From contig NC_073395.1 in the NCBI RefSeq assembly GCF_028641065.1, forward strand, positions 16,492,001 through 16,556,000: a DNA stretch of 64,000 nucleotides, given 5' to 3'. The position numbers and the translations under genes are program-made. Below are positions 3,400 to 62,467 of this stretch, piece by piece; positions within the stretch are counted from its first letter, which is position 1, and every line of letters starts with the position of its first letter. The notes under the pieces are model-generated. The model saw nothing but the letters and a program-made list of their open reading frames with translations, was not told where the DNA came from and did no database searches. The DNA is from Leucoraja erinacea (Eukaryota).

Positions 3400-4260
3400 G
3401 GATACAGTAACCTGGATTCACCAGCAGATCCAGTGACAGCAGGGTCCAGGGGTAGGCAGATATATGGTGACCCAATGACAACCAGGGATCCAGAGATATA
3501 AGGGCCAATGGGGTTCTGGTGATGCCTGAGGATCCAGTGACCAAGGGTTTCCAATGATCCAGTGACAGCCAGGGATCAGGAGATCCAGTGACAGCTCCTG
3601 AAAGACACAAAATGCTGGAGTAACTTAGTGGGCCAGGCAGCATCTCTGGAGAAAAGGAATAGGTGACATTTCGAGTTAAGACTCTTCTTCAGACCCTGTT
3701 CACCTACGCACAGATCTCAACCGGAAATGTCACGTATTCCCTTTTCTCCAGAGATGCTGCCTGGCCCACTGGGTTACTCCAGCATTTTGTGTCTATCTTC
3801 AGTGTAAACCAGCATCTGCAGTTCCTTCCTACACAGCGACAGCTCGGGGTTGGGTTGCAGGTGGGGATTCAGTGATCCAGGGGCAAATAGTGACGTGGAA
3901 AACAGCAAGGGATCCCGTGATAGACGTGGATTAAGTGGCCAGGGGACTGACTGTGTAATATGGGACTAACCATGTAACACGTGACTGACGAGAACCCTGT
4001 ATCACAGACCTGACCGCGTAATACGAGACTGAGGGGAGTTCTATAACAAGGAACTGATGGGGACCATGTAACGTGGACCTGACCATGTAATAAGGGACTG
4101 ACAGGGATCATGTAACATGGGACTGACGTGTATCTTGTAACACGAGACTGACAGGGATTCATGTAACATGGAACAGACAAGAATCATGTAACACGGAGAC
4201 TGATGAGGAACTAGTGACCAAGATTAAGATTGTGGATTCAGTCACTCAGAGACTGATATG
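3400..4260. repeat. Degenerate tandem repeats (gatccagtgac; gggactgac...catgtaac), interrupted at 3603-3833
   Basis: Recurrent motifs visible by eye. Confidence 0.65.
3603..3833. mobile_element. Inverted pair of Penelope-type terminal-repeat fragments with a hammerhead-like core on the - strand (3665-3692)
   Basis: agacacaaaatgctggagtaac...gttactccagcattttgtgtct arms; - strand reads CTGAAGA-A-GAGT-CTTA-ACTC-GAAATGTC. Confidence 0.8.
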
Positions 4261-5164
4261 GATAGAAAACCTGGGGTACGGAGAGGTTCCTGGTGCCAGT
4301 GAAACAGTGTATGCCCCAAATACTCAGCAGGTCAGGCGGCATCTGTGGAGACATCAAACTTAATGTCTCACATTGATCACCGTTAATCAAATCTGGAGAT
4401 TTCTCTCCGCTGTTGCTGCCTGACTTGCTGGGCTCCCTCGGTCTCCATCCTGTAATGCATGGGGAACCAGTAATCGCTGTGAAGACAAAGAGAACTGTGG
4501 GGATCGGGTGTATCAGGGGCTGAAGAGATCGAGTAAAACAGCGTGCAGGAGGACGAGTGTATCATAAAGCCCTTCAACCTGTCCCTCCATTGGGTAAGAA
4601 CATGTCAGTCTGATCCTGGCCCAGCCACACTTCCCATTGTCGATGACTCCCTAATGCGCCAGGGCTCATCTGCGCCTCAAATATATACAGCAATAACGGA
4701 CACTACCCCCCTCCATCATGGCCCATTATAATGAGGGTTATCTGCACTTCATGCTTTGTAGGGTAGGATTGCAAAGGTTTATAATCAGTCCTCATCTCAG
4801 TCTAATGTAATGCAAGAGACTGCAGATGGGATCTGGGGCAAAATGCAAAATGCTGGAGGAGCTCAGCGGGTCAGGCAGCATCTGTGTAAGGAATGGGATC
4901 AGACTTCTTCAGTCTGGAGGACCTCAGAGAAACACCATATTGCACTCTACGTGCCTCCGTCCTTCAGTCTGAAGAACATCATCATTCCATTCCTCACCAC
5001 AGATGCTGCCTGACCTGCTGAGTTCCTCCAGCAGTTTGCTTTTTGCTTAAGTGGAGGTCCCTTTAGCATGGGATCATACACCCTGGCTCTGGCTGTCCCT
5101 GCCAGAGGAAGCATCAACACCTCCCCTGTCACCCCACCGCGCTCCTGAAGCCACAGCCAAAGAC

Positions 5165-6660
5165 AGCACAGATGTTGGAAATATGAAATCAAAACAGGAG
5201 AAAAAAATCTGAGATACTCAGCAGACCAAGTGGAATCTGTGGAGGGAGAAACAGAGTTGGCATTTCAAATTAGAACTAGAAGTGAGAAATTAAATTTGTT
5301 TTAAGTTGCAGAGAAGATGAATTGGGGAGGGGGGGGGGGATGGGGGTTTCAGGCAGAACAGATACCAATGTCCATGACACAGTGAAGAGGCAGAGAAGCA
5401 GAATTACATAAATGGGGGTGTGGTGCAGCTGAGAGAGGGAGGGAAGGTCTGTCTGAGGAGGAGACAGTGGATGGAATCTGAAATACCCGTAAAGGAGAGA
5501 GAGACCGATGGAAATGTGAAGAGCCAGGGTAGAATGGGAGTTCATCTGAAGTGGTTGATGTTAAGCCCTGAAGGTTATAATGTGCCACGTGGGAGAGAGT
5601 TCAGTGGGGGAGTGGACTAGTGAGTTAACGTGTCGGGTAACATCCTCCTCATGACTAAAGAGCCAGCACCCAATCTGGCCGTGAATACTGAACGTAGCAC
5701 ATAGATTGCATGAGGTGGAAGTGAATCGTTGCTTCACATGGAAGGATGTCATGGGTCCCTGGGTGGTGGGAAGTGAAGAGGTGAAAGGACAAGTATTATT
5801 TCTCTGCAGTTGCAAGAGAAAGTGTGGGAAGGGGGGGTGAGGGAGCGGTTTTGTGGAGAAGGAAATTGTGAAGGAAACAGTGCCTACAGAAATGTGACAG
5901 GGAAAAGGAAGATGTGCCTGGTGGTCACATGATAACTGGTGCCATGGAAGGAGAGGATAATGGGAACGCTCCACGTGTTCTGCGTAACTGGAGAGGGATT
6001 TGCGAGCAGCAGTGCAGGAAATGCTACAGGGAGTTGGTCAGCCATGGGACAAAGGGAGCCATTGATGAGCGGAAAATACACCTCTCAGTAGCAGTGGTGT
6101 GGAAAGAGATGTCAGAGTAGATGAGGCAGAGACAGAGAGATCAGGAGACTGGAATGCAACTTAAGACCTTCATTGCTAACTTCCAGTCCTGATGAAAGGT
6201 TGTTAACCTGAAACGTTAAAGGGCCTGTCCCACTTACACGACCTTTACAGGCAACTGCCGGCACCTGTCATAGGTCACCGACATTTTCAACATGTTGAAA
6301 ATTCAGTGGCAACCAGAAAGACGCTACAACTCTTTGGAGACCTCTCATGATCATTGGAGACCTCTCACAACCATACATGCGACCCCTGGCGACATGTCAC
6401 AGGTGACCTCTCACGACCTTAGGGGACCTCTCTCGACCATACCTGTATGGTCATGAGAGGTCATGAGAGGTCTCCAAAGAGTCGTAGCATCATTTTGGTT
6501 GCCACTGAATTTTCAACATGTTGAAAATTACAGCGACCTATGATGGTGCCGGCAGTCGCCTGTAAAGGTCGCGTAAGTGGGACAGGCCCTTAACGGCCTC
6601 TTGCTTCACAGATGTTGCCTGAGGTGCTGAGTATTGTGCCAATATTTTCTTTTTCTGGGA
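5165..6660 (-). mobile_element. Decayed Penelope-like retroelement: GIY-YIG remnant, 3' terminal repeat, and an inverted terminal-repeat copy (6183-6660) split by a MITE
   Basis: Minus strand NTCPFTSSLPTTQGPMTSFHVKQRFTSTSCNL matches the Cys-rich/GIY-YIG region of vertebrate Penelope-like elements; flanked by the same terminal repeat found throughout the window. Confidence 0.8.
6220..6590. mobile_element. PIF/Harbinger-type palindromic MITE, 371 bp, TAA target duplication
   Basis: Ends agggcctgtcccactta...taagtgggacaggccct; TAA at 6217-6219 and 6591-6593; imperfect inverted arms of about 130 bp. Confidence 0.85.
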
Positions 6661-7199
6661 TCTTCTGTCTCAGTAAGATCACCTCTTGTTCTTCTAAACT
6701 CCAAAGCATGAGGGAATAGCCTACTTAATCTTTATTTGTAACATACTTGGGATCAACAAAGTGCACCGTACGTTGTCTCCAAGGCAAACACTTCCTTTCA
6801 TGAGTAAGAAGACAAAGACAGGTGTCCAGTGACAAGGAAGCTGATGGGGATCCGGTAATACATATTTGGGGATTTGAGGACCAGGATGAATGTTGGGACT
6901 TGATCGTGGGAGAATGACGGGACACAGCGACAAGGGAACAATGACAACAGGTGAGGACTGGTAGAGTGGAATGATGGTCATTGTTATCACAGAGGCTACG
7001 GAAACCAGGAGGACGATGTGCTCCCTGTGAGAATGAGGATCTAACCATGAGGTGAAAGGAATGGATGCAGTCACAGAGGGGTTGAAATGCGTCCATAAAA
7101 CGTGTGTTGGTGTCTCTTCAGCTGCAAGAAGAAGAATAAGAATCCACTGAGAAGTGGAGCAAAGGGTATCTTTATTGGTCAGGTTCCAGGAATGTTTAA

Positions 7200-7860
7200 T
7201 TGTCAGGATCCAGGTATGTTGGGGATCCAGTAAAGCGGATTGATGGGGCTCCACTAAGAAGAGGAGCAAAGTGCATCAAACAGTGAGAGCAGCATGACTC
7301 CAGAGACATGAGGAACAATGGGAATGCACCGGACATGGAACCAAAGAGCTGTAGAGTGAGGAGAGAACAGGTAGCAGGGGATAGAGAGAGAATGAGCTGG
7401 ATCAGGTAGAGGGGGAACAGGAGTAGAATGGGGTTAAGGAGAACAAACTTGGAGAGGAGAGAGGAAGAGTGAATGGGGAGCAGGAGTAGCAAGAGCGGGA
7501 AATTGTGTTCAGAGGGATCGGGGCTTGAGGAGAGAGTGAGCAATCGAGAAATATGAAAAGGGAAGCAAATGAAACAGGAGGAGGCTGGGAACAGGGAGTC
7601 GAGAAAGTAGGGGGAGGGAACAGGGAACAACAATGGGAAGGAACGGAGCGCGAGAGCAAACGGGGAACTGGGAGCATTGAGAGTGAATAAGCTGGGAAAT
7701 GGGAGGGGGAAGCAAACAGGACACAGGGACTGGAGAGTGGACAGTGAAGGCCAAGTCATGAAATATATTCTAGTACCTGTAGTATATTTTATAATGCCAG
7801 TAAGATCACTGGATATGGGGAGAAGGGATGAAGGCAAGAACAGGGCTACAAGTGGATGAT
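7200..7860 (+). repeat. Purine-rich low-complexity tract
   Basis: G/A-dominated + strand; gives spurious Pro/Ser/Leu ORFs on the - strand. Confidence 0.75.
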
Positions 7861-8559
7861 CAGCCGTGAATATTGTCGATTCTGAGTCGTACAGTACAGA
7901 AGCAGGCTCTTTGGCCCAACTTGTCCATGCCGACCAGATTTATAATTGTGCGAGTCCCATTTCACTGCCTTTGGCCCATATCCCACCCAACGTTCCAGGC
8001 ATGTAGTTGTCCAAATGTCTTAAATGTCACCATTATAGCTGCCTCTACAGTTTCCTCTTGGCAGCTCATTCCATGAATACACCACCTTCTACTCAAAGCT
8101 TCAGATCTCTTTTTTCCCCTTCACCTTAATCCAATGATGTTCATTTTCCCCAGAGATGCTGCCTGACCCACTGAGTTACTCCAGCATTTTTTTGTCTATC
8201 TTTGGTGTAAACCAGCATCTGCAGTTCTTTTTTGTTACCTTTAGTTCTAGACTTTCTCTACCCTGGGAAAAAGACTATGACCATTCACCCTATCTATGCC
8301 CTTCATGATTTTATAAATCTCTGCAAGGTCACTCCACAGCCTCCTACGCTCCTTGGAAAAAAGTCAAGCCTGTCCAGTCCCACCTTATAACTCAGGCCTC
8401 CAGTCCTGTTAACATCCTGCAAAATCTGTTTTGCGTCCTTTCCAGCTTAACAATATCCTTCTTAGATAAGGACGAGTGCACACAATACCCCAAATGTGGT
8501 CTCACCAATACCTTGAAGAGCAGGTTTGAAGTAATGATGGACTACTGCCGCTGCTTCAG

Positions 8560-9410
8560 AGAGTGTGAGGGTGAGCAGGAAGCAGTGGGTGAGAGAAAAC
8601 GGAGAAGAGATCAAACATCGAACATGGAAAGGGAAAATAAGCAGGGAACAGAGAGGAGGAGGGGAGAGAGAAGGACAGTGAGGAGCGGGAGAGAGGGATA
8701 ATGATCGGGGGGGTGAGCAGGGGAGAGAGAGAAGGGGAAAAGAATGAAACTAGAGAGTGGAGAGAAGGGTGTGGGAGAGGGATCAAGGAAAACAGGATGG
8801 GACAGCAAGAGGAAACAGTGAACAAACAGTAAAAAAAAAATGGGAGCAGGAAACGCAACCGGAACGGAGGAGGAGAAGAAATTGAGAGCAAGCGAGAGAG
8901 CAGGAAATGGCATGGGACGGAGGGAGCAGGGGATGGGGGGGGAGTGAAGGACGGAGAGGGAACAAGATCGGGAGCAAGGACAGGGAGCGAACCGGGGGAG
9001 GGAGCAGCGGAGGAACAGAGACCAGGGAACGTGGACCTGCAGACGGAACGAACGGGACGGAGGGAGCACGAGATGGAGGGTGCAGGTAGGGGAAGGGAAT
9101 GGGACGGAACGAGCTGGGGACTGAGAGGGTGAATGAGACGGAGGGAGCAGGGGGAGGGAACGGGACGGAGAGTGCAGTGGACCGGGAGGGAGTGGAGAAC
9201 GGGGAGGGAACAGGGATAGGGAGCAAGTAGGGGGCAGGTGGCGAGGACAGACGGAGCAGGGATCAGAAATATAAAACAAGTGAGCAAGCAGGAAATGGAG
9301 AGGAGGTACTGAGCAATGAGCGGGAGTGGGAGAGGGAGGAGGCCGAGCAGAGAAGGAACGAGCCAGAAAGATTTCGGAGCAAGGCCAAGATGGGAGTGAG
9401 CAATGGAAAA
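8560..9410 (+). repeat. G/A-rich degenerate repeat (gggagca / gggaacg units)
   Basis: About 850 bp with very few T on the + strand. Confidence 0.85.
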
Positions 9411-11395
9411 GCGAACGTTCATTGGTAGATTACTTATCCTTTGGCAAGGGTTTCGTCCTAGAGCAGTGGATTTCTTTGGCTCCGGCATTTTCTTCCCCTA
9501 TCATTTTTACTGGGTATTTTAGCAGGAGAGTTCTCTGTACAATGACATTACATTCATCTTACTTGTGAGCTTCTACAGTGCATGAACTCAAGGTGGTCTC
9601 AGCGCTGAATGAAACAATCATAATTCAGCCTTGCTTGACGTGAGTGGGGACATACTGAGAAAGGCGAGCGATGCAAGCATGCACCCGGTGTGGGAAACCT
9701 CCGGGTAATATCAGAGTGAAACAGAGAAGAGATAAAATAGAGACTTTCATTGATATCACATGGCAGGCAGCTCAGAACATCCCAGTGCTATTTACACCCA
9801 GCAAAGTCTAGTCCATTTCTCTCAGGGTTGCAGCCTACTTGATTTCACTCCATTTCTGAGGAGTGGAGGATGCCAATGCGTGAATTCATTTTTAACGTCA
9901 GCAGCTCGTTACACAATTAATCACCATGTTGTCTTGACAGAGAGAGGTCTGGGTCCTGTGGCAAGAAGACAGGAATTTAAGCTATAGAACAGAAGCGCTG
10001 GACTAACTCAGCGGGTCAGGCAGCATCTCTGGAGGACGTGGACAGCTGGCTGTGCTGTGTGGCCAGAACACTTGAACACAGAGGCACACTCTAAGCGCAG
10101 ATAGACGCACTCCGACTGCGCAAACCCATATGAGAGCACAGAAGCGATCTTACTCACTACCCATTTCCAAAGTAATGTAATGCTTGCAAGCCTTGCCTGT
10201 TCACTCCGTCTCTAAAAGTAAAACCACCAGTGGGAGCACGCAGTGGACCAAGCAGCCTCTGTGGAGAGAAAAGGAAGAGTTATCTTTCCACCAGCTGCAG
10301 TTGTTTTTATTTTCACGCTCCCACTAATAACCTTTTCCTAATTGCTTGATATCTAGTTCAGAAACCTGGATTGAGGGAAGCTTTATCAAGGATACTGGGC
10401 AGATTTATTTGCTCTTTAAAATTGTGCCCTGAAAACTGTTTGTGGATGTTCTCATCTCCGACCAAATAGCACGGCCCCTGTCCTACACTGAAAAGTCCAT
10501 CTGATTTGTGGGATCTTCATCAACTGGGCTAATGGGCTGAGGAATGACTGATGGAGTTTAATTCAGATAAATATGAGGTGTTGCATTTTCAAAAGACAAA
10601 GCAGGGCAGGACTCGCACAGCAAATGGTGGTGCCCTGGGGAGTGTTGTAGAACGTAGAGACCAATGAGTACATGGTCCCTTGAAAGCGGTGAAACAGGCG
10701 GGTAGCCCTGACTCAAGAATGTTAAGCACAGTTTGCAGTGTCTCCATTCTGTTTACTCTAACTGTTAGTAGCTGCTTCAGGTACTGTGAGGACAGCAGTC
10801 CTGGACATGCCCACCGTTTATATTGGTGATGGCAGGGTAGGTCGTCAACCTCACAGCCCCAGGATCCAAACACTGCGTTGCATTTACCCCTGTGGTGACC
10901 AGCGGGACAACACGGGGCCGGGCGAGTGAGGGGCAAGGTGTGGGCGATGGGGCTGAGACAGATGCAAGGTCGTGCATGGGGCAGAGGTGGCCAGCAGGAG
11001 TGTGGAACCAAAATCCACACGGCACCAGTGGCCAAGGTGGGTAAATGGGTGTCTACTCGTGTGATGTCAGTACAGAGCGTTTAATTGTCATATGCACGAG
11101 GCCCAGAACAATGAGCTCCTTACTTGCTGCAGCTTTACAGGTACACGATAAACAGTAAATTATCAGGCAAACCAGAGCGTGATAGTGCAAAACCAGAGTG
11201 CGTAGTGTTGATTCCCTGGTCAGTGTTGTGTGTTCCCTTGGGCTGGGCTGCCACAGTATTATGTTCCCTTCCCTGCCCCAGATCAGTCTTGAGCTGCTTC
11301 AGTTAGTTCCTCTGTTGTCCCATTCGACTGTGCTCCCCGCTTCACCAATACTTCACCCACCCTCGCTGACAATCTTCTTTTCTCTCCCGTGACAG

Positions 11396-11564
11396 AGCCC
11401 TGGCAGGCAAAGCGTCTGCGCGGCACTCCAGAGAGGATCGAGCTGGAGAACATCCGAGTGTCCCTGGAGCGGGAGGAAGATCTGCAGGAGGTGCCGGAGG
11501 AGACACTTGCTGAGCACAATCTGAGCAGCGCTTTGCACCAAACCAGCCAAGAGCCCGGCAGCAG
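11396..11564 (+). CDS. MICAL3: MICAL3-like exon (EPWQAKRLRGTPERIELENIRVSLEREEDLQEVPEETLAEHNLSS...), phase 1 to 2
   Basis: AKRLRGTPERIELEN and EVPEET-AEHNLSS are MICAL3 post-LIM motifs as I recall them; acceptor ttttctctcccgtgacag, donor CAG|gtcagt. Confidence 0.93.
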
Positions 11565-13341
11565 GTCAGTGTCGGACAGGACGGCAGTCCTGCAAACCCC
11601 TGAGAAACAGACCCCTCGGTGTCGCAACCTTGCATGGGCCAAATAAATCTCCCACCTTTCATCTAATCCAGACCCCCAATGTCTGGACCTACCTCGTCAG
11701 CCTAGTGTTTGTCTACCTCCGTCTCGCAGTGTTGTACGTGTCTGATTACATTTGCTTTCTGGATGGTTGTGTCTAGTTTCTTTCCTGTGGTGTCTCGTAT
11801 GCAACAGATAATGTTGGCAATCCTCAGCGGGCCGGCCACCTCTGTGGGAAGAGAAACATAGTCAACGTTTCAGATCAAACACTTTCGTTAGAACTTGAAA
11901 AGTCCACACCTGAAATAAAATCTCTGTTTCTCTCTCCTTAGACACTGCCCCGACCTGCTGAGTGGGTCTGTTATTGTCTCCTCGTGCATGACCCTGCTTG
12001 GAGCCATATAGCACCGAAACGGGCCCTACTCTTCTGCCCAACTCATCCATGTCTAAGATGCCCATCTAAGCTAGTCTCACTTGCCTATGGTTGTCTCCTA
12101 TCCATCTAAATCTTTCATAGAGTCGTAAAGTCGGACAGAATGGAAACAGGCCCATCGGCCCAGCTTGCCCACACCAACCAACATGTCGCATCTACACTAG
12201 TCCCACCTGCCTGCATTTGGCCCATATCCCATTAAGCCCATCCAATTCCATGTAACTATGTAAATGTTTCTTAAACGTTGTGATAGTACCTGCCTCAACT
12301 ATCGGCTCTTGCAGCTCGTTCCATATACCCACTACCCTTTGTATAAAAAAAGGTTACCCCTCAGGTTCCTAGTAAATCTTTCCCTCCTCACCTTAAACTT
12401 ATGTCCTCTGGTTCTCGATTCTCCTACTCTGGGCAAGAGACTCTGTGCGTTTACCTGATCTATTCCTCTCGCAATTTATTTTCTACCCATTTACCTGTCG
12501 AAATGGTTTTGCACTTTGTAATTGTACCCGCATCAACCACATCCCTGGCAACTTGATCCACGTATCTATCACCTCATATGTGAAAACCTTGCTCCTCGGG
12601 TCCCCTTTAAATCTTTCACTTCTTATCTTAAATCTATGCCGTCTAGTTTTAAACTTCCCCATGTATGCTCCTTGTGATTTTATAAACCAGTATAAGATTT
12701 ATTTGGCAGGAATATCAGGCGGGGGATGAGGATCAGATTTCTCATCCAGTGTGGGTGTGGGGGATAGGAACTCCACAACTGAAAGGATGAGACAGACCAA
12801 AACCCTCATCACATTTAAACAGAGGGAAGTTAATCGGGCTATGGGGGAATAAAAAAAATTGAGATTAATGCAAGCCGGTGCAGACTCGATGGACTTATTT
12901 CTGTACAGTGTCTCTCTATGACTCTAAAAAAGGCAGAAAATGCTGGAAACACACAGAAGGCCAGGCAGCATCTGTGGAGAAGAACAGAGAGTAAATATTT
13001 CAAGCCAACTTCCTTTGCCAGAACCTTTTTGATGTGAGCGTGGAGAGCTGCAATCTACATACAGTGCTGGGAGGTGGGATCAGGGTGAGGAACTCATTAT
13101 TGATCGCCTTGCAAAGGATGGGCTTCATTTTGTGCTGCGTATTTTCTACACAACTGTGATTTCAGCTGCTGGTCTTGTCCTGCCTATCACTCTGTCTCGT
13201 CCTGTGTATCGTGCCGGGCAGTGCTTAATTTCCGTGCAGTCTCTACCTCTGTTGCAATCTCTGTATGTCCGCTAATTTATCCACCCTACTATCACTGTTG
13301 GAGCCAGGGCACTGCTTATCAAGTGACATATCTGCATTCAG

Positions 13342-13568
13342 TTGCAGCAGCTCTGAGTACGAAATGGAGGAGGACGAGGAGGAGGAGGAGGAGGAAGAAG
13401 ATGAGGAGGACAAGGAGGATAAGAGGGATGAGGAAGATATGTTGTCTCCCTCAGTGGACGGAGTACCATGGAGAAAAGCAGCGGAGGCCCAGCAGTTGCT
13501 GAAGAAAAATTCAGAGGAAGACAGTGAGGCAGAGAGCGAGGATGAGGGACATTCACAATCGAGTTACG
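13342..13568 (+). CDS. MICAL3: MICAL3-like acidic exon (SSSEYEMEEDEEEE...GVPWRKAAEAQQLLKKNSEED...); start 13342, 13348 or 13351
   Basis: Poly-Glu plus GVPW-KA motif like MICAL3; three in-frame phase-2 AGs (ttcag ttgcag cag); donor ACG|gtgagt. Confidence 0.88.

Positions 13569-19342: not shown

Positions 19343-19344
<2 letters not shown>

Positions 19345-19380
<36 letters not shown>
19345..19380. repeat. (TG)n microsatellite upstream of exon 19419, within a larger TG-rich tract (19045-19386)
   Basis: Direct reading. Confidence 0.95.
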
Positions 19381-19386
<6 letters not shown>

Positions 19387-19418
19387 TCCTCTTCCTCCCT
19401 CCCTCTCTCTCTCTGAAG

Positions 19419-50483: not shown

Positions 50484-50926
50484 GGCATTGGGTGTCTGAG
50501 GATCAGTAGGTTTCTGGGTGGGCCTGTCCAACTTTGACAAACTGTCATTGACTGTCTCCATTGCTGCACAATTTCCGTCTAATGAAGCTGCTCAAGGGGC
50601 TAGCCGTTTCTCCATCAGAAGCAAGTGAGTGAACGGGTACTCAGTGAGCACCTGCACCCAAGGGGCTTATCTGTCAACAAAACCACCATTGAACGTGAGC
50701 CTGCACATGAGGCACCTGCACCAGAGTTGCAGTCCCATCAGAAGCGACGGAGCACCTGGTCTGCACGGCAACACCTTGCAGGACTAGACTGCAGCGTGCA
50801 TTCCCAGTGCAAGGTTCTGACCGAGAGTTTGGGTTGTGTTCACCTCTTGAGCAGCACATGTGTGTGCATGATTTGTACTGCGTGTTGCCTGGCATTGTAC
50901 AGTAACTCTTTCTAATCTTATTATAG

Positions 50927-50977
50927 ACTATTGGGGAGAGTCTAGTTACAGTGAAATCCTCGACTTGCATCTGGGTG
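50927..50977 (+). CDS. MICAL3: Probable 51-nt cassette exon within bMERB (DYWGESSYSEILDLHLG)
   Basis: Branch ctaat, acceptor ttattatag, donor GTG|gtacgt, phase 1-1; resembles the DYWGES-YSEILDLHLG insert recalled from vertebrate MICAL3 isoforms. Confidence 0.82.
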
Positions 50978-51465
50978 GTACGTATGGCTGTCGCTCTGCT
51001 TCATCATTCTTGCTAACCTTCACCTTTCTCTCTAATGCCTTCCTCTTCACTTGTATCCTTGACTGCACCCTCTTTTTAGTTTAGTGAGGTTAGAGTACCT
51101 GCCTCCCTGCCCCAGATCTTGCACAGTCTCATGTATGTATAGTGGTGACCATTCTCGGCTGAAGAGATGGGTGGGGGAGGGGTGGGGGGGGATGTCAAAT
51201 TGAAAGTAGTGTTTGGACAAGTGATCAAGCAGCAAATTGCAAGAACGGCTTTGCTTCTAATTGAGTTACATGCTGACTAATTATAGGGCTAGCCAAATGT
51301 TGTTTCTTGGCTTTGGAAGTGGATGGGTTTGGGGACAGATGAATGGGGAACCGGATGGTTGGTTGGGTGAGAGGGTGAAGGGCGGCAGGGTGACAGAGAT
51401 GGGTGGTTAGGGGTGATGAATGAGAGCGGGGGGGGGAGTGATGGATGGTAAATTGGCAAGATGTA

Positions 51466-52351
51466 CTGTGCCCACCATAATGTTTGGGACAAAGAGCCAT
51501 CATTTATTTATTTGCCTCTGTACTCCACAATTTGAGATTTGTAATAGAAAAATATCACATGTAGTTAAAGTGTACATTGTTAGATTTTATTAAAGGCAAT
51601 TTTTATACATTTTGGTTTCACCTTGTAGAAATTACAGCTGTGTTCCTACATAGTCCCCCCCATTTCAGGACACCATAATACAATGATGATACAACTGCTG
51701 ATGGTAACAGCATAATGAATTCTGAAGTGTATAGACTCATCCTATCTGCTCAACTTCAAACAAATGCCTCAAAACTCATTGGCCGGCGGTTCATTCTACA
51801 GCAAGACAATAATCCCAAACATACTGCTAAAGCAATAAAGGAGTATTTCAAAACTAAAAACTGGTCAATTCTTGGGGCCGTCAATCACCCGATCTGAACC
51901 CAATTGAGTACGCCTTTTATATGCTGAAGAGAAAACTGAAGGGGACTACCCCCCTAAAACGAGCATAAGCTAAAGATGGCTGCAATACAGACCAGGCAGA
52001 GCATCACCAGAGAAGACACCCAGCAACTGGTGATGTCCATGAATCGCTGACTTCAAGCAGTCATTGCATGTAAAGGATATGCACCAAAACATTAAACAAG
52101 CTACTTTCATTTACATGACATTGCTGTGTCCCAAACATTATGGTGTCCTGAAATGAGGGGACTATGTATAAGCACTGCTGTAATTTCTACATGGTGAAAC
52201 CAAAATGTTTAAAAATGGCCTTTATTAAAATCTGACAATGTGCACTTTAACCACATATGATTTTTTTTCTATTACAAATCTTAAATTGTGGAGTTCAGAT
52301 GGAAAAAAAATAAATAATGGGTCTTTGTCCCAAACATTATGGAGGGCACTG
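51466..52351 (+). mobile_element. Internally deleted Tc1-family transposon, IR/DR-type long TIRs, TA target duplication
   Basis: ta|ctgtgcccaccataatgtttgggaca ... tgtcccaaacattatggagggcactg|ta; ~210-bp TIRs; transposase remnant FILQQDNNPKHT...SPDLNPIE with frameshift and stops. Confidence 0.92.
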
Positions 52352-55300
52352 TACGACAAGATGCAGTGAAGACTAAATGTAATGAGGAAATAATGAGCGA
52401 ATAGGCCAGAGTCCAGTCCCACAGGACTCCCACAGAGTTCCACTTCTGCAGAACATGATATTCAGGTTCTAGTTGGGCTGGGGAATTTGATGCATCAATG
52501 GGAAGAGGCACTTTTACGGAATTAACTGACAGAATATTTTTTACTGAATTAACAAACAAAAATAAGGTTGGGGGCTTCAACCTCTGCAGTGCAGGTGGGA
52601 GCTCCAGGATTCTACCCATGTCCCTGGACTGAAGAGGAGGGGGACCGAGGAGGAGGGGTCGTAGCTGATCCAAGAGAGTTATGAATCTGTTGAATTCTCT
52701 GCCTCAGAAGGCAATAGAGGTCAATTCTCTGGATGCTTTCAAGAGAGAGTTAGATAGAGCTCTTAAAGATAGCAGAGGATATGGCGTGAAGGCAGGAACG
52801 GGGTACTGATTGTGGATGATCAGCCATGATGGTGCTGGCTCGAAGAGCCGAATGGCCTACTTCTGAACCTTTTATCTATTGTCAATAGAGAGAAATAGGA
52901 ATAACGTTTTTTAATCGAGCATGCCTAATTTTAACGGGTTGGAAAGTGATAGCAACTCAAACATAACTCACTCGGAGCTACTCATCAAAGGGGTTCAGGG
53001 ATTTAGCATTTTTTAAGTCGATAATTCAACAGAACTAAATGATATGCAGCTCAGACTAGTAAAAAAAAAACAAAAGGGGGAGATGGTAGAGGCACTGGAT
53101 ACAAATGTTTGATATACTAGGAACGGAAGCAGAAAACAATTGCAAGGATATTGCCAGGGTGATTAAGGTACCAAGATTATTTTTCGCATTTGGAAGAGTT
53201 TTTTTTTAAATGTAGTGTGGAACTAGGCCCTGAATCCATGCCGACAATTGTTCACTGGTTCTATATTATCCCTCTTCCGCATCCTACACACTAAGGGCAA
53301 TTTGCAGAATCCAAATAACCTACAAACCTGCATGTCTTTGGAATGTAAGAAGAAACACAGAGGAAATGTAAGAGGGAGAACGTGCAAACTCCAAACAGAC
53401 AGCACCCGAGGTCAGGATCGAACCCAGATCTCTAGCACTGTGAGCCAACTGCTCTACCACTATGCCAGACTTGAAGGACTAAGTTGTAGGGAGAGATTGG
53501 GCAGGCTAGGACTTAATTCCTCCCAAGGGTGTGTTTGACAAAGCTTTCAATGTAACCCTACTGGTCAAAATAATCATAGACCATGGGATCCAAGGGTGAG
53601 AGGCAAACTAGATCCAGAACCAACTCAGTGTCAGGAAGCAAACAATAATGGTTGATGAGTGTTTGAGACAAGAGGCAGTTAGCAGTGGGGGTTTCTCAAT
53701 ACCTAGTACTTGATCCCTTGATCTTTCCCATTGCATAATCAATGATTTAGACTTAAATGTAGAGAGCATGACAACAAATAGCAGGATATTGGTGTGGAGA
53801 AACAAATAAATCTTGACAAGTAAGTGCACAAGTACTTAATGTTCGCAGGACAGATCAATAAGGTGATACAAAAGATATACAGGATGCTTTGTTCTATTTA
53901 CTGAAGCACTGAATGAAAGATAGGAATACCGAGAGGGAAGACTCCTGTGCCCTAAATGTATGAGGAGTCTGCAAATGTGGACAGACATAACGAGTGTGAT
54001 GGAGAGACAGTTATTGATGGGAGAGGCAGGAATCGAGGTGTGATGGGGAGAGGCAGAGGTTGATGGGGAGACAGGAGTGAATGAAGGAGATGGCGGATGT
54101 GATGGGGGAGACTGGGCTGCATGGGGCAGTAGGGGTTCTGATTTGGGGGAACCAAAGATGGGAGAGGAAGTGATGGAGAGGGCTGTGATGGTGGAGGCAG
54201 GGGGAAGATGGGAGAGGTGGAAGTTGATGTATGTAATGGTGAAGCAGTTATTTTTACCTGATCTTTCTGTTTCATCACAGGAGCCTGAATATTTAGACTT
54301 TGGAGCACTAATATTAAGATTAGTGAGTGGACTGTAGGTTTCACACTCACTTCTATTGTTAGCTATCACTGTGTACATCTCTGCATGTATTTAACCATGG
54401 CTTGGTCTCCTGCTCCCCATCATTGGCTGCGGAAACTTGCACACGTGTGGATATTGGCAACCAGCTACAGCTGTCCTCAGCTGTGATAGTCCCCACCGTT
54501 CAATAGCTAAACCGCGCCCGTTCTTTAAGCTTGATGCATTACCGAAAGTTAATGGTGCGCAGTTAGAGTTGGCATCTACAATTCAGAGGAATGAAAGCAG
54601 AATGTGTCAGTGATGGCCAGCGCGATGTGAAGATGGCAGCTTGCTGATTGCCCCACTCTCTGTGAACCAGGTTCGCTGGCAAGTTGATGATAGCACACTG
54701 CTAGAGGAGGCCATTCCTGTTAATGGGCTGACATGCTTAGAGGGCACAGTCACTGATAAAAAATCTAGCTGCGTGTTTGCTCTTGGTTTTAAATGTAGAT
54801 TGCATGCTCTTTATGTAATTCCAATGGTTTCTTCACTAACAATTAACTGTTTGCTCTCCTCTTCCATCACCTACAAGTCTCCCTTTGACTTCCGGTTTGT
54901 AGCAACACTTGTTGAGCAGACTGTCCTAATGACGTTGGTTCGGTTTAAGCATGGGCACATTAAGGATGTTCTCTTGATAGATGCATGATTGTGGAATTTG
55001 GTTTTCTAACTCCGCATCATACCAGGTTTTACAGAGGTCAAGCAGTCTGCTGCCAAAATGGCTTAGCTAGAGCACAAACGCCAACCAGGGAAACTACTAT
55101 TACAATCCAGCTGTTGTGCCACAGAATAACACTGGGAGGGCAGTGAGCGAAAGAGGCAAAGCACTCCACATCTGGGCTCCACACGGGCAGTCCTACCAGC
55201 AACATATCTCTCCCACATCCATTATAAATCACGTTCCTCTCCTCATCCATCCTCTTCTAATCTCTCTCCCACACTAAGTGTGACTTTCTGCCTCATTTCA

Positions 55301-55767
55301 CCCCCTGCTCAAAAAGTGCTCACATTTCTTCCTCGGCCTTTTGTGTACTCATGCCTTTACTTTTCTCTTCCAAGCTGCGCTTCCAGATTCCCTCCCCCTT
55401 TGTGCTTCTGTCCCACTCTCCATCCTTGCTCTGGTTTACATCCCGGCTCTGCCTCTCTCCCTCCTTCTGCCCCACTCTCCATTCAGTGAGAAGATTTGCT
55501 TGAGATTTTGAAAGTTGGAGGGCTGCTTGTTATGGAGGGGTACCGTGGTCTTTGATTGTGTAACCCTGGATTGCATGAGTGAGATATGCCATTAGTTCCT
55601 TGATTGCTACAGGCAGTTGCACTGTCTCATCCTGTTCTTGTTTTCCTTCATTTCTTTCTGTTTGTTTCCTGCCCCCTCATTATTAGATTCTTTGCTTTGC
55701 CCTCTTCTTCTCTCCCTCTCACATTCTGCTCCTCTGCTTTGCTTTTCTTTTACTTCTCTTGTTGAAG

Positions 55768-55836
55768 TTGAGGCCCTTGTTGGAGCTCCGCGGCGAAGAC
55801 CTCTTTCCTTCTGCCACTGCTGTACCCACGACAGAG
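55768..55836 (+). CDS. MICAL3: Probable 69-nt cassette exon within bMERB (VEALVGAPRRRPLSFCHCCTHDR)
   Basis: Very long pyrimidine tract, gaag acceptor, donor GAG|gtaatg, phase 1-1; PRRRPLSFC-CC resembles a recalled MICAL3 alternative exon. Confidence 0.82.
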
Positions 55837-57856
55837 GTAATGTAAACCAAGCCCTCAGAGGGTCACCTTAACCACACTGGGGTTCTCAAACCCTGAGGCT
55901 CAGTACAGTTCCCTTGGACACCTGGTCAAGTGTAAATTGTGATCAAATACCGCACCCGCTGCAGGACCAGCTTCAGGGAGCCAGAGGTAAGAACGGCCAG
56001 AGAGCTGGAGCCGTCAAGAAGTTGAGGAAACCGATGGCTTCAAATTAGTGGGGCAGAGATAGAAGTGAATGGTACAGTCCCCCTAACGGATGGGTTAGGC
56101 CCATGGGACATTAAAGTGGTAGATGGTTTAGCCATGCCCCATTTGGCAACGTGCAAGATGGCGGTCAGTAGGGATAGCATGAGTGTGTAGTGCCATGTCC
56201 CATCCCGACAACACATGCTGTTGTCAGCCTGCTCTGTCCCCCTCCTGTAGACCTCACGCCTGGGAATCCCCGACTGACAGGACCTCAGAGTGAGCATCAA
56301 AGTTCGAAGCAAAGCCCCGTTTGATTAAGGCAGATGAATGGATTCAAATGCTCTCTTAGCTTTGGGGTTATCCTCTGCTAACAAGACAAGAGCTCTCCAC
56401 CCTTGGCCTTGGCCCCCATCTGACCACTGAACCCCATCCCTTGATCACAGGCTCCAACCACCAACCACCAAACCCTGCACTTGGCTCCACTCCTTGATCC
56501 TGCTACTCCTCCCCACCCTTCTCCCTCACTCTACCTTGCCACTCAACCACAGCATGCAGGCACACACTTGGTCTGTCCCTTCAGTCACACCATCTCCCGT
56601 TCTCTGTGTGTTATCCTCCCTCCCCAGTTTCCTGGCCTTTTCTCCCCATTTCCTATTTCCCCATCATTTGCTTTTTCTTCCCATGGCCTTTCTCCTCATC
56701 TCCCAATTCCCCTAATCAATTTTCCTCAGTGAATGGAAGGTTTCTTACTTGTCACACGTTCTTCTCTCTCTCTCTCTCTCCATATTCTCCCCATCTCCCA
56801 CTTGCCCATTTCCCAAACAGTTCCCCATAACTGTACAGTATATAATAGCGCCATTGATACACATATCCAGAGTAGCGAAGATCCTCCTATCTGACGCAAG
56901 TAATTTAATGGTTAACTACCTGAGGACTCATGGATCCATCACCATATCCTGTAATAACAAATCTTTGAATTGGAAGATCAGCCTAATCTCTGCAGGATGA
57001 AAACTCAGTCAGCATTCTCCTCTGAAAGTAGTGGCTGAAGAATAGATTCGGATCATCCCCAAAGGCCACTCCATCGTGCCGTCCTGGGTCAGAAAAATAC
57101 CGAGGGCTCTGGAGAGTGAGTGAGGCAGTGTGACATTAGTTTTAATTGTACCAGTATGGAGCCAGCTTTGGCACCATGGATCTAAAGGCAGAGAGACTCA
57201 ACCACTACCTGCACTGAGGTGAGAAGCTGGGCAATAAATGAGAAAGAATTGAGACAGAGTGGTTTCCTGAACCACCTCCCCCAAGGATCTCACTTCACTG
57301 TGAGTGCACACGGGCTGGGAAGGAATGAGAGTCTTGCCGGTGCAGAAAATTGGCTTGTGGCGTAGACCAGAGCGTAATAGCTGTTCCTTGGGACTTTACT
57401 CTGCCTCTCTGCCTGCTTGCAGTGACTCACTCCATTCCACCCGCAGTAATCTCCACCTGGACTGACTTCTCATCTCAACGACTGGGCTTTATTTTCCCGT
57501 ACCCTGCTTTTCTGTTCTGCAAGCACCCGTTTTGTTGAATGGCCTGAAATTTTCCCTTGGCTGAGAAACTTTCCATTCACTGAGGCACAGTACCTCCAAA
57601 CCTTGGTCAGCTGACAGTGGAGACATCTGAGTTTTACCTGTAAAATGTGAAGTCTGGAGTCAGGTGCAATCCATAATGGTGAACAAGATTCAGCCTGGGG
57701 CAGGGACTGAGAAAGCAAGAGGACTAGGGTTGCAGCCAGTGGTTCTACGCACTAAGTACACAGGTTGCCAAAATACAAAGATGTGGGCGTGATTTACCCC
57801 CTAGAGTAATTCCCACTGCACGTTAGATGATACAAGTATGCTATAGAAAGGTAGAT

Positions 57857-58055
57857 TCAGGGAACTGCAGATGCTGAAATCTTGCTTAGAACACACAGGA
57901 AGGAACTAAACAGGTCATGCAGCATCTCTGGAGAACATGGTTAGGCGACATTTTTGGACACGTCAGTAGAAGGGTTCTGATCCTAAACGTCACCTGTCCA
58001 TGTCCTCCAGAGATGTTGCCTGACCCGCTGAGTTACTCCAACACTTTGTGTTCTA
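57857..58055. mobile_element. Inverted pair of Penelope-type terminal-repeat fragments
   Basis: gcagcatctctggagaacatgg...ccatgtcctccagagatgttgcc; similar pairs at 4812-5048, 11810-11965 and 36095-36285. Confidence 0.75.
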
Positions 58056-60544
58056 CTCTGTTGAAAGATGGTTTAGATCTATGACCTTTGAGGCCATTAA
58101 ATCTAATTTGCACTAATTAAGCAAGTGTTCACATACAGCATGTAATTGTTGCACATTGGACAAATACTGTAGGTTGCCAAGGCTACCCTGTTTACCATGC
58201 ACATTCAGAAGTAGCAGCATTCTCTGATGCTCCCAGGTTGGTTGTGTGTTGCCCATTCAGTTCAAACGGGTTAGATGCGACTTTTGTTCATTGTTCAATC
58301 TAAGTGAATGCTAGTCAGTCACAAATCTAGCAGAGTCTGTCTGTGAACTGTCCCTTTGAGCTTGCAAGAAAGGAATAAATCAAGGGTGAGTTTCAAGCAA
58401 AATCTGCAAGTAAGGGTAGGAACACCAACCAATCAAACCCACATTATTAGGAGACGGTTTAAGCATTTACCTTGAATTTCTTCCAGCTGAAAACTTGTTA
58501 CTGATTAAATGTTGTAAAGGAGCCCAAAGTACTTCTTACCATGTTACCCCCCTCCCTCCCCCCCCCCCCCTCCTCCCTCCCCCTTCCCTAGAAAAATGGA
58601 TTGGCAATAAACACGTGCATCAGTTGGCATCTCACGGAAAAAATGATTCCTTTACTCCCATCAAACCCACCACGGGCACCTCCTCCTCCCCCCCCCCCCC
58701 CCCACCCCCATTCACTTATCGTCCTTCTACCAATTCATTTGCACTTCATTCCTCCCACTTTCGCCATCACAGAACTCTCTACAAGGACAAGAGTAGTGAC
58801 AATTTTATTCCTATCATACGTTGGTGGAAGAGAATGTTCCTAACCTTGCCACACGTCTTGATATCACCAACCAATTGTTAGAGGACATCATAGGTTAAGT
58901 CTCACAAAAATTAATCATCCTTTTTTAAACAAATTAACATTACAACTTCCTAGTGTTATAAACCAATAAAATACCTCCCATAGAAGTGACCTATTACAAA
59001 CCTGTCTGTATTAATTTAACACATTACAGAACTTACGTGTAATAAACTGCTACTACCAACCAACCATTATGTCAAGCTATCATTACAAAGCAACCAGTGT
59101 TTCAATCTAGTATGACAAGCTTGCTATTGTAACACGCTGATACTGTAGAGTTTCCACCCAACAAATTGGCACTGCAGATCAACCAAAATACCAGGTTAAA
59201 GTTGCAGGCCAGTCGTTGGTGTGAAGCTAACAATTAAACCTCACAGTTTAATCGACCAATATTACAGCCCTTCCATTTTTACAAACTGACAATACAGACC
59301 CCTTATTGTAATATACCAATATAACAGAGCAATCATTATATGAAACTAATGAAACTAACTAAGATCACATTCCAATTAAAACAACATTGCGATTTTTCCA
59401 TTGTAACAAACTGACAAGGCAGACACACCATTATAAGGAACCAATATCACAGACTCTTAAACCAAAATCAAACTTTAGATTTAAAGGAATTGAAATTAAG
59501 AACCTCTCATTATGGAGACCAATGTCACAACTGTAGTAAATCAACATTCCAGGCTTTCCTTTGTACAAAATGACACTACAGCTATCCTATTGCAATAGAA
59601 TTGTAACAAGACTTCACCTGGTAACCCATTAACCTTACAATTTGTGAGATATGAGTTGTTTGCCAACTCAGCAAGTCTTTGAAGCCTGAGGCTTTATGCC
59701 AAAAGTAGGCTATGTCACAGCTCCCTACTCCGAAACAATATACAGGGAAAAGCACAGCAGTGCCTAGTGCATGGTGGAAGGAATAATAAGTAAGTGGGGT
59801 AAGAAAGAATGGTCAACGTTGAATCTCTAATCTACATCCAAGAACCATTATTTGCTTTGTTTCATATCCACATTCAGGCTTGAGGACACACAGACTGGGC
59901 TCAGGAAAGGGATTGTGTAGAATGGTGGGCACTACTGAGATTCCATGAATGTCATCAGAATGAAAGTGTGTGCATATGCAGTGCATGTGATAATGTGTCT
60001 TAATGTGTAAGGTCTCTAAGATTGTGTGAATGGGTGCACACAGGAGTTTAAAATTGTATCGGATGTCTCAGAATATGATGATTGTGTAACAAAACTTTTA
60101 CAAACGAGTAATATGTGCATGGTACATAATGCCTGAAAATGCCATAATATACACTATGAAGAGTAGCATACCTGATAGAGACAGACAGGTTAGAATGAAA
60201 TGAAAATGTTTTGTAGTATATGTAATCAATTGTGGATAGCCAGCCAGGTGAGTTGCAGGCTGCAACATTACCTAAAGATTTTGCAATTTATATATTAAAT
60301 AAAAGATGATTGGGAGCAAGTTGTAGGCTCTGTCAATAAATATTGGGTAGTTTACAGGTAGAATATCAGATACTTGGAAATAAGTTCAATGCCAGTCTAA
60401 TTGAGAGATTTTCAGTGTTCAGGTGTGGAATATTTACATCTGAGTGGTGAGTTACAGATTAGAATGTATTCAGTGGGTTTTGAAGGTTTATATTAGAATA
60501 CCTGGAGTGAGTTATAGGCTGGAAACCAATCTATAGATATTGGG

Positions 60545-60639
60545 TGTAGACAAAAGTGCTGGAGAAACTCAGCGGGTGAGGCAGCATCTATGGAGCAAAG
60601 GAAATAGGCGACGTTTCGGGTCGAGACCCTTCTTCAGAC
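60545..60639 (-). mobile_element. 95-bp Penelope-type terminal-repeat insertion with a 15-bp flanking duplication
   Basis: TCTATAGATATTGGG at 60530-60544 and 60640-60654. Confidence 0.85.
60610..60637 (-). ncRNA. Minimal type-I hammerhead ribozyme-like core
   Basis: Minus strand CUGAAGA-A-GGGU-CUCG-ACCC-GAAAC-GUC: conserved core boxes, 4-bp helix II, palindromic ACGU helix III; helix I is weak. Confidence 0.6.
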
Positions 60640-62467
60640 TCTATAGATATTGGGAGTTTATTTATAGAATAAGTTATAGAAGCAAGTTATAGGCTCAAAT
60701 ATGAACAATAATGATGGGGATGTACAGCATATGTAGAATGGCAGATGTTGAAAGTAAATTACTGACTGGAATCTAATTGAGAGATCTTTGGAGTTTACTT
60801 ATAGAATAGTAGATGCCTGAAGGTTGAGTTTGAGTACAGAATCCAAGCAATAATTATTGGATACTTCGAAATTATTTACTGCCCAGAGTCCAAATAAGAA
60901 TTTAATTATAAAATCTAATCAATAGATGTTGAGAATCAAATGGCGAATCCAAGGAAAAATCTATAATCTTACTGAGAACTGAAGGATTTGTAAGCAGAAT
61001 CAGTAATAACGGAAGGAATTTGAGTTTAGATGACAAATATTTGTTGTTTATATCTTGATTAACATCGAGCTGGAAATTGGTTTTATTGTATAAATAGACT
61101 AAAAAGCTATTCAATAGGTTTGGGGTAGTTGAAGTCAATTATGTGCAGATTCTAACTGGATTTTTTTAGCATTAGAAGCAAAATAAATAGTGAAATTTTT
61201 AATAGGTGGAAAATAATATTTGAAATACTCTGCAGAACATGCACTATCTGTGAACCGAGAGATAGAGTCAATGTTTCAGACCAATGGCTTTTCTTGGAAC
61301 TGGGAAAAGTTAGAAGCGGAATGGATTTTGTTGTTTGGAGAGTGAGGGGGTGTCGGATAGAATGGAGACCGGGAGAGACTAAATAACACAAGTGTTGGTG
61401 GTGCCTGTTGAGAAAAGTTGGTGATGGTGTGCCTAGACGATGCGCAAGTAAGAGGTGGCGAATAAAACCGTATTGTTGTTGTTACGAAATAAATTTGAAA
61501 TAGCAGAAGAGATGAGAGGAATAAAAGAATTGACTGCAGTAAATGTGAGATACAAGAATTGAACGTGTAGGAACGAACTGCAGATGCTCATTTAAACCCA
61601 AGATAGTCACAAAAAGCTGGACTCAGTGGGTCAGACAGCATCTCTGGAGAAAAGGAATAGGTGACGTTTCGGGTCGAGATTCTTCTTCAGAATGGAATGC
61701 CTGAAACTGTTGGCTTTGTTGTTGAGCTGAGGACTGTATTGAGCCCAGACATAAGATGAGGTGCTGCTCCTCGAGCTAATAGCATCCAATAATGTGGAGG
61801 GACAGCAGTATTTCTAGGCAGATATTGGAGTGAGTGACAACCCAGAGGTAAAAAAAAAAGATTTGGATGGTTTAAAATAAATTAACAGATTGTCCAGGTC
61901 AATTCTGGGCATGAACCACATCTTTTTCCTTTAGCATCTTTTAGCAACTGGTTAGCATCTAATCAAGACATTCAGATGATCTATGTTCAGAATAATATCT
62001 AACTGGAAGTGAGTTCTAGGCTGGGATATAGTTGAGGAATTTGGACATTTTATACATTTTTATATAAGAAAATGCAGATGCTGGAATATTGTGCAAAACA
62101 TAAAGTACTGGAGTCAGTGGGTCAGACAGCATCTGTGTAAAGAATAGATAGGTGATGTTTCAGATCAGGACTGAATGTCAGAATCAGGCTGATTTTTATG
62201 TTAGTTTAAAGTTAATTGCCGAATAGTCTGCAACCTGTTTGATGACCCCTACGGACTGATGACCTAGGACGAGGTTAAGTCGGTGTGTTACCCAATGGTT
62301 TGAAGTGCAGGGTTATGCTATGTTGAAATGATCCGCTCCAGCTGTGTGTGTACTTACAAGAGACTGTATGACAGAGCTTTCTTTGTGTTGGTGAGTGGCC
62401 CGTTGTCTCCTGTCTCATGCATGGCGTGCCTTGTTGTGGTCTTTGATTGTGATGTGCTCTCTGGCAG

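What the first reader, a model, noticed from the sequence alone, without database searches (positions are those of the whole stretch)
3603..62170. About 20 Penelope-type terminal-repeat fragments carrying a minimal hammerhead-ribozyme motif
Seen: the commonest short repeat (...ctgaagaagggtctcgacccgaaacgtc...ccagagatgctgcctgacc-gctgagttactccagc) begins with CUGANGA / helix II / GAAAC-GUH. Cores are readable at 60610-60637(-), 3665-3692(-), 61663-61690(-), 6189-6217(+) and 40816-40843(+). Helix II co-varies: GGGU/ACCC, GAGU/ACUC, AGGUU/AACCU. The repeat abuts GIY-YIG remnants at 5165-6120 and 28790-29345. Known: Penelope-like elements and retrozymes carry minimal type-I hammerheads whose palindromic helix III works in dimers. 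Inference: a very high-copy ribozyme-bearing retroposon family (about one fragment per 3 kb here). Helix I is only about 2 bp in these copies, so activity is uncertain.
Basis: partly seen in the sequence, partly recalled or inferred. Interest (0 to 1): 0.7.

Follow-up and report, generated by a model that had tools for sequence, protein, structure and literature searches.

The report
Skate Penelope retrotransposon stubs with hammerheads
These repeats are short, mostly decayed end pieces of a known kind of jumping gene (a Penelope-like retrotransposon), with an estimated million copies in this skate genome; they carry a known miniature self-cutting-RNA motif that is predicted to be weak, and they were likely copied from uncut RNA.

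Summary
The repeat is real: 23-30 fragments lie in the window, all in MICAL3 introns, and about 1.1 million genome-wide (extrapolated). It is the end repeat (pLTR) plus tail of a Neptune-type Penelope-like element: it follows a GIY-YIG match on the same strand in 23 of 30 loci, and in long copies it precedes the RT frame. The motif is the published minimal hammerhead of such elements. Only 3 of the 5 named cores pass a strict descriptor, and one has every element. The cited helix II 'covariation' is decay (29 double mutants, 15.5 expected); real lineage covariation is in helix I. Copies have target-site duplications, two fixed 3' ends about 40 nt apart, and 5' ends peaking just before the core. 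Only 5 of 352 start at the predicted cut site, as background predicts. They are therefore likely short reverse-transcription products of uncut RNA, not retrozymes. Cleavage is untested. The scan has noted this family many times, in this genome and in sharks. Known kind, modest interest.

The parts
60530..60657 (-). Only complete motif in the window: solo stub with core 60637-60610 (predicted cut between 60610 and 60609), 2-bp helix I, short 3' end, flanked by a target-site duplication (15 nt exact, 18 with one mismatch)
3586..3845 (.). Head-to-head fold-back insertion, arms 3595-3697(-) and 3715-3835(+), 12-nt target-site duplication with one mismatch; the minus arm holds the decayed GAGU/ACUC core at 3692-3665
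   Evidence: variant counts
4812..5051 (.). Head-to-head pair 4812-4917(-) and 4964-5051(+), cores partly deleted
5167..6120 (-).
6184..6634 (+). Inverted old-subfamily repeat head to head with the element above; core 6189-6217, split just after the cut site by an inverted-repeat DNA element (about 6220-6590), resuming at about 6594
8140..8230 (+). Stub without core
9975..10281 (-). Two coreless stubs (9975-10035, 10218-10281)
11803..11971 (.). Old-subfamily head-to-head pair
12911..13002 (-). Old-subfamily stub
22787..22878 (+). Stub starting inside the core; G12 lost
25098..25503 (+). Two pieces (25098-25156, 25456-25503), likely one stub split by another insertion (inferred)
28786..29347 (+). 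5'-truncated element: cysteine linker and GIY-YIG remnant, then the downstream block and tail; the part that should hold the core is masked and was not judged
32389..32726 (.).
   Evidence: tblastn E 1e-19
36096..36288 (.). Head-to-head pair, decayed cores
36524..36833 (.). Linker/GIY-YIG remnant 36524-36700(-) and a weak repeat match 36745-36833(+)
   Evidence: E 2e-11 and 0.002
40814..40935 (+). Solo stub with the long 3' end; core broken (GAUA)
47106..47182 (+). Stub starting in helix II
57858..58064 (.). Head-to-head pair, decayed cores
61214..62171 (-). Three stubs: 61214-61279 (old), 61563-61695 (core 61690-61663, helix II broken), 62065-62171
4309..4352 (-). Short coreless piece
2746..63572 (+). 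Host context: 16 exon matches of a MICAL3 gene; every repeat lies between them

Best explanation
The repeats are 90-135-base insertions of the hammerhead-bearing end repeat and tail of a Neptune-type Penelope-like retrotransposon, likely made when the element's reverse transcriptase started at one of two internal sites and stopped near the ribozyme's first letters on uncut RNA. Shown: ORF end - pyrimidine-rich spacer - hammerhead motif - about 135-nt leader - ORF start; two 3' ends; a 5' peak just before C3; target-site duplications; 30% with an inverted partner; neutral decay of the copies. Inferred, most to least secure: (1) endonuclease-primed insertion from the two internal starts, by analogy with the Anolis element; (2) the template was not cut at the hammerhead, or had been rejoined; (3) the 5' peak is the start of the capped RNA, so the motif fills the first ~33 nt of the message and a cut would remove the cap. 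The motif was probably kept by selection in the active lineages as a weak, dimer- or protein-assisted ribozyme. The intronic copies in this window are inferred to be inert passengers.
For: Same-strand repeat 200-520 nt after a GIY-YIG match in 23 of 30 loci picked by protein alone; opposite strand in 3. Frames of about 400 aa with RT, CX4CXXC linker and GIY-YIG motifs. Pfam RVT_1 E 1e-5 and GIY-YIG E 4e-4, both below the curated cut-offs; 36 longer homologues, most with RT. In L329-L331 the repeat runs on into the ORF start; in L331 the main ATG is at +164 (C3 = 1), and the N-terminus aligns with 6 homologues. 3' ends are bimodal, about 61-68 and about 101 nt past the cut site (same loose ends in reads and contigs of related organisms). 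PMC11167929 equates such a tail with two RT start sites. 5' starts: 138 of 352 at or before position 0, commonest single start -1 (28 copies), 5 at 28-30 against 5.2 expected. Exact duplications of 8 nt or more in 22 of 194 solo copies against 0-2 in 5 controls. None of 29 duplication-flanked copies starts at the cut site. Extra G before the -1 start: 13 of 24, p 0.004; by eye 33 G, 30 T, 9 C of 72. Helix I changes by lineage: U-A (18 of 24), U-G (18 of 25), and a 3-pair helix in an old subfamily.
Against: No cleavage, start-site or protein data for this element. 5' starts are spread (-4 to +18 in 27 of 29 duplication-flanked copies), which ordinary truncation or stalling at structure could also give. 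The G excess is modest and absent at the -2 start (11 of 32, p 0.17). Poly(A) reads of a related organism show no pile-up of ends anywhere, including -1, though passenger copies swamp them. Copies spanning the cut site cannot tell uncut from religated circular RNA. PMC3846280 argues that head-to-head inversions fit an antisense template. The old subfamily has C at position 9 (134 matches), which may mean relaxed selection on catalysis. Clade placement was not tested with a tree.
Confidence: 0.72

Rival explanations
1. Circle model: the hammerheads in two pLTRs cut the transcript, the ends are ligated, and RT copies across the rejoined site; stubs are early drop-offs.
For: Proposed in PMC4209133 (discussion read). 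It explains partial tandems such as L331. A rejoined site has the same sequence as an uncut one, so spanning copies do not exclude it. Helix I is kept by compensating changes.
Against: Gives no reason for a 5' peak with an extra G at -1. No excess of ends at the cut site. The active fold is predicted to be rare in a monomer: helix I probability 0.002 or less in the first 132 nt. In Anolis, ribozyme mutants insert normally in vitro (PMC11167929).
Confidence: 0.15
2. The 5' peak is a structural stall or template-switch point at the 3' pLTR, not the RNA's start; otherwise as in the best explanation.
For: 104 of 352 copies have an inverted partner, with junctions spread over -4 to +21. Starts are dispersed. 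The core strand is predicted to pair with the pyrimidine linker in subfamilies A and C.
Against: G excess at -2. The peak sits in a TCAGT initiator-like motif (sequence; consensus recalled; PMC3846280 notes an Inr-like TCACT in a rotifer pLTR).
Confidence: 0.3
3. An independent non-autonomous, ribozyme-driven family (retrozyme or SINE-like) that multiplies from its own short RNA.
For: Own target-site duplications; copy number near a million; stubs far outnumber coding pieces (depth drops about 20-fold outside the stub).
Against: Dispersed, not tandem (10 of 437). Not bounded by cut sites. Each common stub type also occurs behind an ORF end. The 5' flanks are not shared.
Confidence: 0.06
4. Intact intronic copies cut host pre-mRNA and so regulate genes such as MICAL3.
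For: About 29,000 fully intact motifs genome-wide by extrapolation from 16 in 1.2 Mb; the repeat is abundant in poly(A) reads on both strands.
Against: No complete sense-strand motif in this gene; the one complete copy is antisense. Core letters decay like flanks, 0.89 against 0.93, and G12 is 0.70. Only one same-strand pair of intact motifs in 120 stretches, 4.7 kb apart.
Confidence: 0.04

Closest known systems
Minimal type I hammerheads in pLTRs of metazoan Penelope-like elements (Cervera and De la Pena 2014, PMC4209133; parts 1-2 of 4 read, 2 supplementary files searched, file 1 not searchable)
   Same: Full core, one extra base between 9 and 10.1, G10.1-C11.1 pair, palindromic 15.2-16.2, no helix III loop, location in the pLTR, mostly solo copies, some close pairs on opposite strands; reported there for Xena, Poseidon and Neptune elements of fishes.
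   Different: Helix II is 4 bp (7-8 in Schistosoma) and helix I 2 bp (4-5 there; 2 in D. virilis). Copy number is far higher than the 4,000-9,000 they give for coelacanth and Xenopus. No skate or shark term was found in the files searched.
Neptune/Nematis-type EN+ Penelope-like elements (Craig et al. 2021, PMC8557442, passages; Arkhipova et al. 2013, PMC3846280, passages)
   Same: RT then cysteine linker then GIY-YIG, pLTR, partial tandem, inverted 5'-truncated copy, optional 30-40 bp tail, target-site duplications.
   Different: Nothing structural found; stub-dominated abundance in a skate was not found in my paper searches.
Anolis Poseidon element PAc (Frangieh et al. 2024, PMC11167929; parts 1-2 of 4 read)
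   Same: Two internal RT starts equal the tail ends; uncut RNA is the main template; no read ends at the cut site.
   Different: There the ORF starts inside helix II; here the main ATG is about 135 nt past the cut site. Different clade. Their ribozyme was shown to cut with protein help; this one is untested.
Non-LTR retrozymes (Li et al., bioRxiv 10.64898/2026.07.22.740005; part 1 of 5 and passages read)
   Same: Type I hammerhead, related to pLTRs, reported in one chondrichthyan.
   Different: Defined as tandem repeats with a hammerhead in each unit; these copies are dispersed stubs.

Membership tests
EN+ Penelope-like element, Neptune type | Single ORF with RT and C-terminal GIY-YIG | tested here: met
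   L226, L227, L239 frames; Pfam hits below curated cut-offs; 36 longer homologues. The window itself has only remnants.
EN+ Penelope-like element, Neptune type | CX2-5CxxC linker before the endonuclease | tested here: met
   CX4CXXC in genomic frames and in 12 of 12 homologues looked at; feature from PMC8557442
EN+ Penelope-like element, Neptune type | pLTR in partial tandem, inverted truncated copies, optional 30-40 bp tail, target-site duplication | tested here: met
   (104 of 352 inverted; two 3' ends)
EN+ Penelope-like element, Neptune type | RT phylogeny places it in Neptune rather than Nematis | not tested
   No named reference set was at hand; the preprint found only Neptune and Poseidon in vertebrates
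PLE minimal hammerhead | Core C3UGANGA9 ... G12AAA ... UH17 with extra base 9/10.1, G10.1-C11.1 and palindromic 15.2-16.2 | tested here: met
   Consensus of four young subfamilies; 56 descriptor hits against 0-2. The old subfamily has C at 9.
PLE minimal hammerhead | Helices supported by covariation across lineages | tested here: inconclusive
   Helix I: yes. Helix II: only one U-A to U-G change; the cited double changes are decay. Few lineages, and search patterns fixed most helix II letters.
PLE minimal hammerhead | Helix I of 4-5 bp as in most described families | tested here: not met
   2 bp in young, 3 bp in old subfamilies; 2 bp is reported for the D. virilis variant
PLE minimal hammerhead | Self-cleavage as dimer or with protein | not testable with these tools
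   Predicted dimer helix III only -3.1 to -4.1 kcal/mol
Rfam hammerhead families | Match to a covariance model | tested here: not met
   None among 11 matches at E<=10
Non-LTR retrozyme | Tandem units each with a hammerhead | tested here: not met
   10 of 437 cores tandem; one intact same-strand pair, 4.7 kb apart
Non-LTR retrozyme | Monomer bounded by cleavage sites | tested here: not met
   5 of 352 start at 28-30
Non-LTR retrozyme | Accumulating circular RNA | not testable with these tools
   Only one poly(A) raw-read run, of another organism, was offered

The most novel reading that the evidence does not exclude
The million stubs are run-off copies of the capped first 95-135 nt of the element's mRNA. 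The hammerhead is then the very front of the message (its helix I 5' strand is the first two bases), a cut would decap the RNA, and the genome itself maps the start site and both RT start sites of a Neptune element. The old lineage with C at position 9 would show that the 'extra' base of these minimal hammerheads can sit before A9.
Probability: 0.4. Interest if true: 0.5.

Novelty: new member of a known kind. Interest (0 to 1): 0.25.

Why it matters
The link between Penelope-like elements and minimal hammerheads has been in print since 2014, so the finding itself is ordinary. What has value is the census. About 5% of this genome is one 130-base element end, and its sharp boundaries extend to a Neptune element what was shown in vitro for a lizard Poseidon element: internal starts and an uncut template. 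They also give exact positions to test for the open questions of where PLE RNA starts and what the hammerhead does.

Tried and rejected
Rfam scan: no hammerhead. One search found nothing because I mis-set the loop length; redone. Intron idea: a GT..AG stretch of about 122 nt after an upstream ATG looked like an intron (my notebook entry 2 still says so). It is rejected: the stretch encodes the homologous N-terminus from its own ATG, and no such joint was among those shown in RNA reads. The upstream ATG opens 41 codons in one subfamily and, read by eye from the consensus lines, stops early in two; no role assigned. Cut-site starts reported by earlier notes for sharks: not seen here. TATA box about 31 nt upstream: only weak matches in some spacers, by eye; not claimed. 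Sequencing runs: no RNA holder listed. The one raw RNA run is from another organism, about 6% of it was read, and it showed no end pile-ups; uninformative on cleavage. Protein atlas gave no result. No non-partner control pair was run for the double-mutant count, so the 1.9-fold excess is attributed to age spread by inference. No covariance model, tree or structure was built. Strand bias of intact motifs in genes could not be tested beyond this gene.
Full report
Observation. The five cited places hold core-like sequences. A profile from 30 exact genomic copies finds 23 fragments in the window; one including older subfamilies finds 30, 16 on + and 14 on -, and none in the reversed window. All lie between 16 exon matches of a MICAL3 gene that spans the window on +; the large exon is 97% identical to a skate protein. 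A strict minimal-hammerhead descriptor without helix I passes 3 window copies (60610-, 3665-, 6189+) and 53 in 120 evenly picked 10-kb stretches, against 0, 0, 2 in shuffles. 61663 has a broken helix II and 40816 a broken GAAA. Only 60610 is complete, and it is antisense to the gene. Rfam reports no hammerhead.

Abundance. One 31-letter pattern has 11,640 exact matches in 2.19 Gb, control 0. The profile gives 605 hits in 1.2 Mb, 4.8% of bases, 0 reversed; that extrapolates to about 1.1 million fragments. Sixteen fully intact young-type motifs in 1.2 Mb extrapolate to about 29,000.

What it belongs to. In 23 of 30 loci picked only by a 66-residue GIY-YIG query, the repeat follows on the same strand within 200-520 nt; 3 had an opposite-strand hit there and 7 had no same-strand hit. 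Longer stretches hold frames with RT motifs, a CX4CXXC linker and GIY-YIG, weak Pfam hits and 36 longer homologues. Upstream of three of four long copies fetched, the same repeat runs on into the ORF start; L331 shows ORF end, spacer, motif, leader and ORF start in partial tandem. The main ATG is at +164 counting C3 as 1, and the N-terminus aligns with six homologues. By the features in PMC8557442 (passages) this is a Neptune- or Nematis-type element; no tree was made. In the window, remnants at 5702-5806 and 28812-29077 are confirmed and two more found. The 5167-6634 region reads as one old insertion with an inverted end repeat, later split by a DNA element.

The motif. Four young subfamilies share the whole core, an extra A between 9 and 10.1, a 4-bp helix II, a CG palindrome at 15.2-16.2 and a 2-bp helix I. 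These are the marks of the minimal hammerheads in PMC4209133 (parts 1-2 of 4 read), reported there for fish Neptune elements and shown to cut poorly in vitro. Lineage-level change is in helix I: closing pair U-A in 18 of 24 A copies and U-G in 18 of 25 B1 copies. In 27 old-subfamily loci (3 of 30 dropped for young flanks) there is a three-pair helix: C above in 18 and G below in 15, with A in 12 as CpG decay would give; then U-A in 15 and G-C in 13. That subfamily has C at position 9 (134 matches). Among 235 copies, core letters are no better kept than the linker (0.89 against 0.93; G12, in a CpG, 0.70; truncation depresses the 5' values). So copies decay neutrally, and any selection acted on the source elements. 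Folding predicts the active form is rare in a monomer: helix II 0.03 or less in three of five subfamilies, helix I 0.002 or less; the dimer helix is -3.1 to -4.1 kcal/mol.

How the stubs form. I anchored copies on the downstream block alone (425 found; 397 kept with an intact first half; 352 with at most 4 mismatches). 3' ends fall in two groups, about 61-68 and about 101 nt past the predicted cut, and reads and contigs of related organisms break off at the same places. PMC11167929 (parts 1-2 of 4) showed that such a tail lies between two internal RT starts, that ribozyme mutants insert normally, and that the ribozyme needs protein. 5' starts: 138 of 352 are at or before position 0, 59 of them reaching the end of the reference; the commonest single start is -1. 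Five lie at 28-30 against 5.2 expected (95% interval 0.5-3.3%). An inverted partner is present in 104 of 352. Exact duplications of 8 nt or more flank 22 of 194 solo copies against 0-2 in controls. Of 29 duplication-flanked copies, 27 start between -4 and +18 and none at the cut. The window's 60610 stub and the 3595-3835 fold-back each have a duplication. Each stub is therefore its own insertion, and its template carried the ribozyme's 5' part.

The start-site reading. Earlier notes suggested the 5' peak is the capped start. I tested the predicted extra G: 13 of 24 at the -1 start (p 0.004), 11 of 32 at the -2 start (p 0.17). In the first 100 of 2,555 listed matches I counted by eye 57 G, 32 T, 11 C; after dropping 28 visibly element-derived flanks, 33, 30, 9 (p 3e-4). 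This is real but modest support, and stalling or template switching remains a rival. Poly(A) reads from another organism cover the stub about equally in both directions and show no pile-up of ends, which says little because passenger copies dominate. Earlier notes on sharks report starts at the cut site; this genome's sample shows none.

Comparison and verdict. It works like, and by tested features is, the pLTR-and-tail of an EN+ Penelope-like element with a minimal hammerhead. It fails the tests for a retrozyme. Searches for skate- or shark-specific descriptions listed none by title. A 2026 preprint covers one chondrichthyan (passages; its supplements are closed), and file 1 of the 2014 supplements could not be searched. 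The scan holds 119 notes fitting these words in this genome. New member of a known kind; interest 0.25. Cleavage, the start site and any circle remain untested.

Noticed in passing
window 6220-6590: A roughly 370-bp element with terminal inverted repeats and a TAA duplication splits the old repeat just after the cut site; by recalled criteria a Harbinger-type miniature DNA transposon.
   Followed up: partly
L266, L271-L298: Old subfamily with C at core position 9 followed by A, and a 3-bp helix I; suggests either a dead core or that the extra base lies before A9. PMC3705267 (passage) covers only changes of the base after A9.
   Followed up: partly
L331:2965-3130; subfamily consensuses: The block after the linker holds an upstream ATG preceded by a pyrimidine tract and AG in all subfamilies; it is at least as well kept as the core, has no assigned role, and lies where the protein may bind.
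   Followed up: partly
folds: In subfamilies A and C the purine-rich core strand is predicted to pair with the pyrimidine linker, a possible off-switch.
   Followed up: no
L045, L077, L232: Head-to-tail runs of a 66-nt piece of the repeat that starts at the GAAA of the core.
   Followed up: no
window 32389-32650 and 36524-36700: Two further GIY-YIG/linker remnants on the minus strand.
   Followed up: partly
window 44241-44380: Near-perfect inverted repeat of about 35-bp arms (weak Rfam miRNA match); probably another miniature DNA element.
   Followed up: no
L021:1606-1773 and L331:2780-2940, 3095-3199: In the poly(A) run of another organism, coding and spacer parts show about 2:1 strand bias, antisense to the ORF if the library is of the usual stranded kind; the stub part does not.
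   Followed up: no
L310, L316: The ORF's N-terminal half contains a proline-rich tandem-repeat expansion of variable length.
   Followed up: no
window 2746-63572: MICAL3 gene, residues about 912-1981 of the skate homologue, with a 554-residue exon at 37939-39600.
   Followed up: yes
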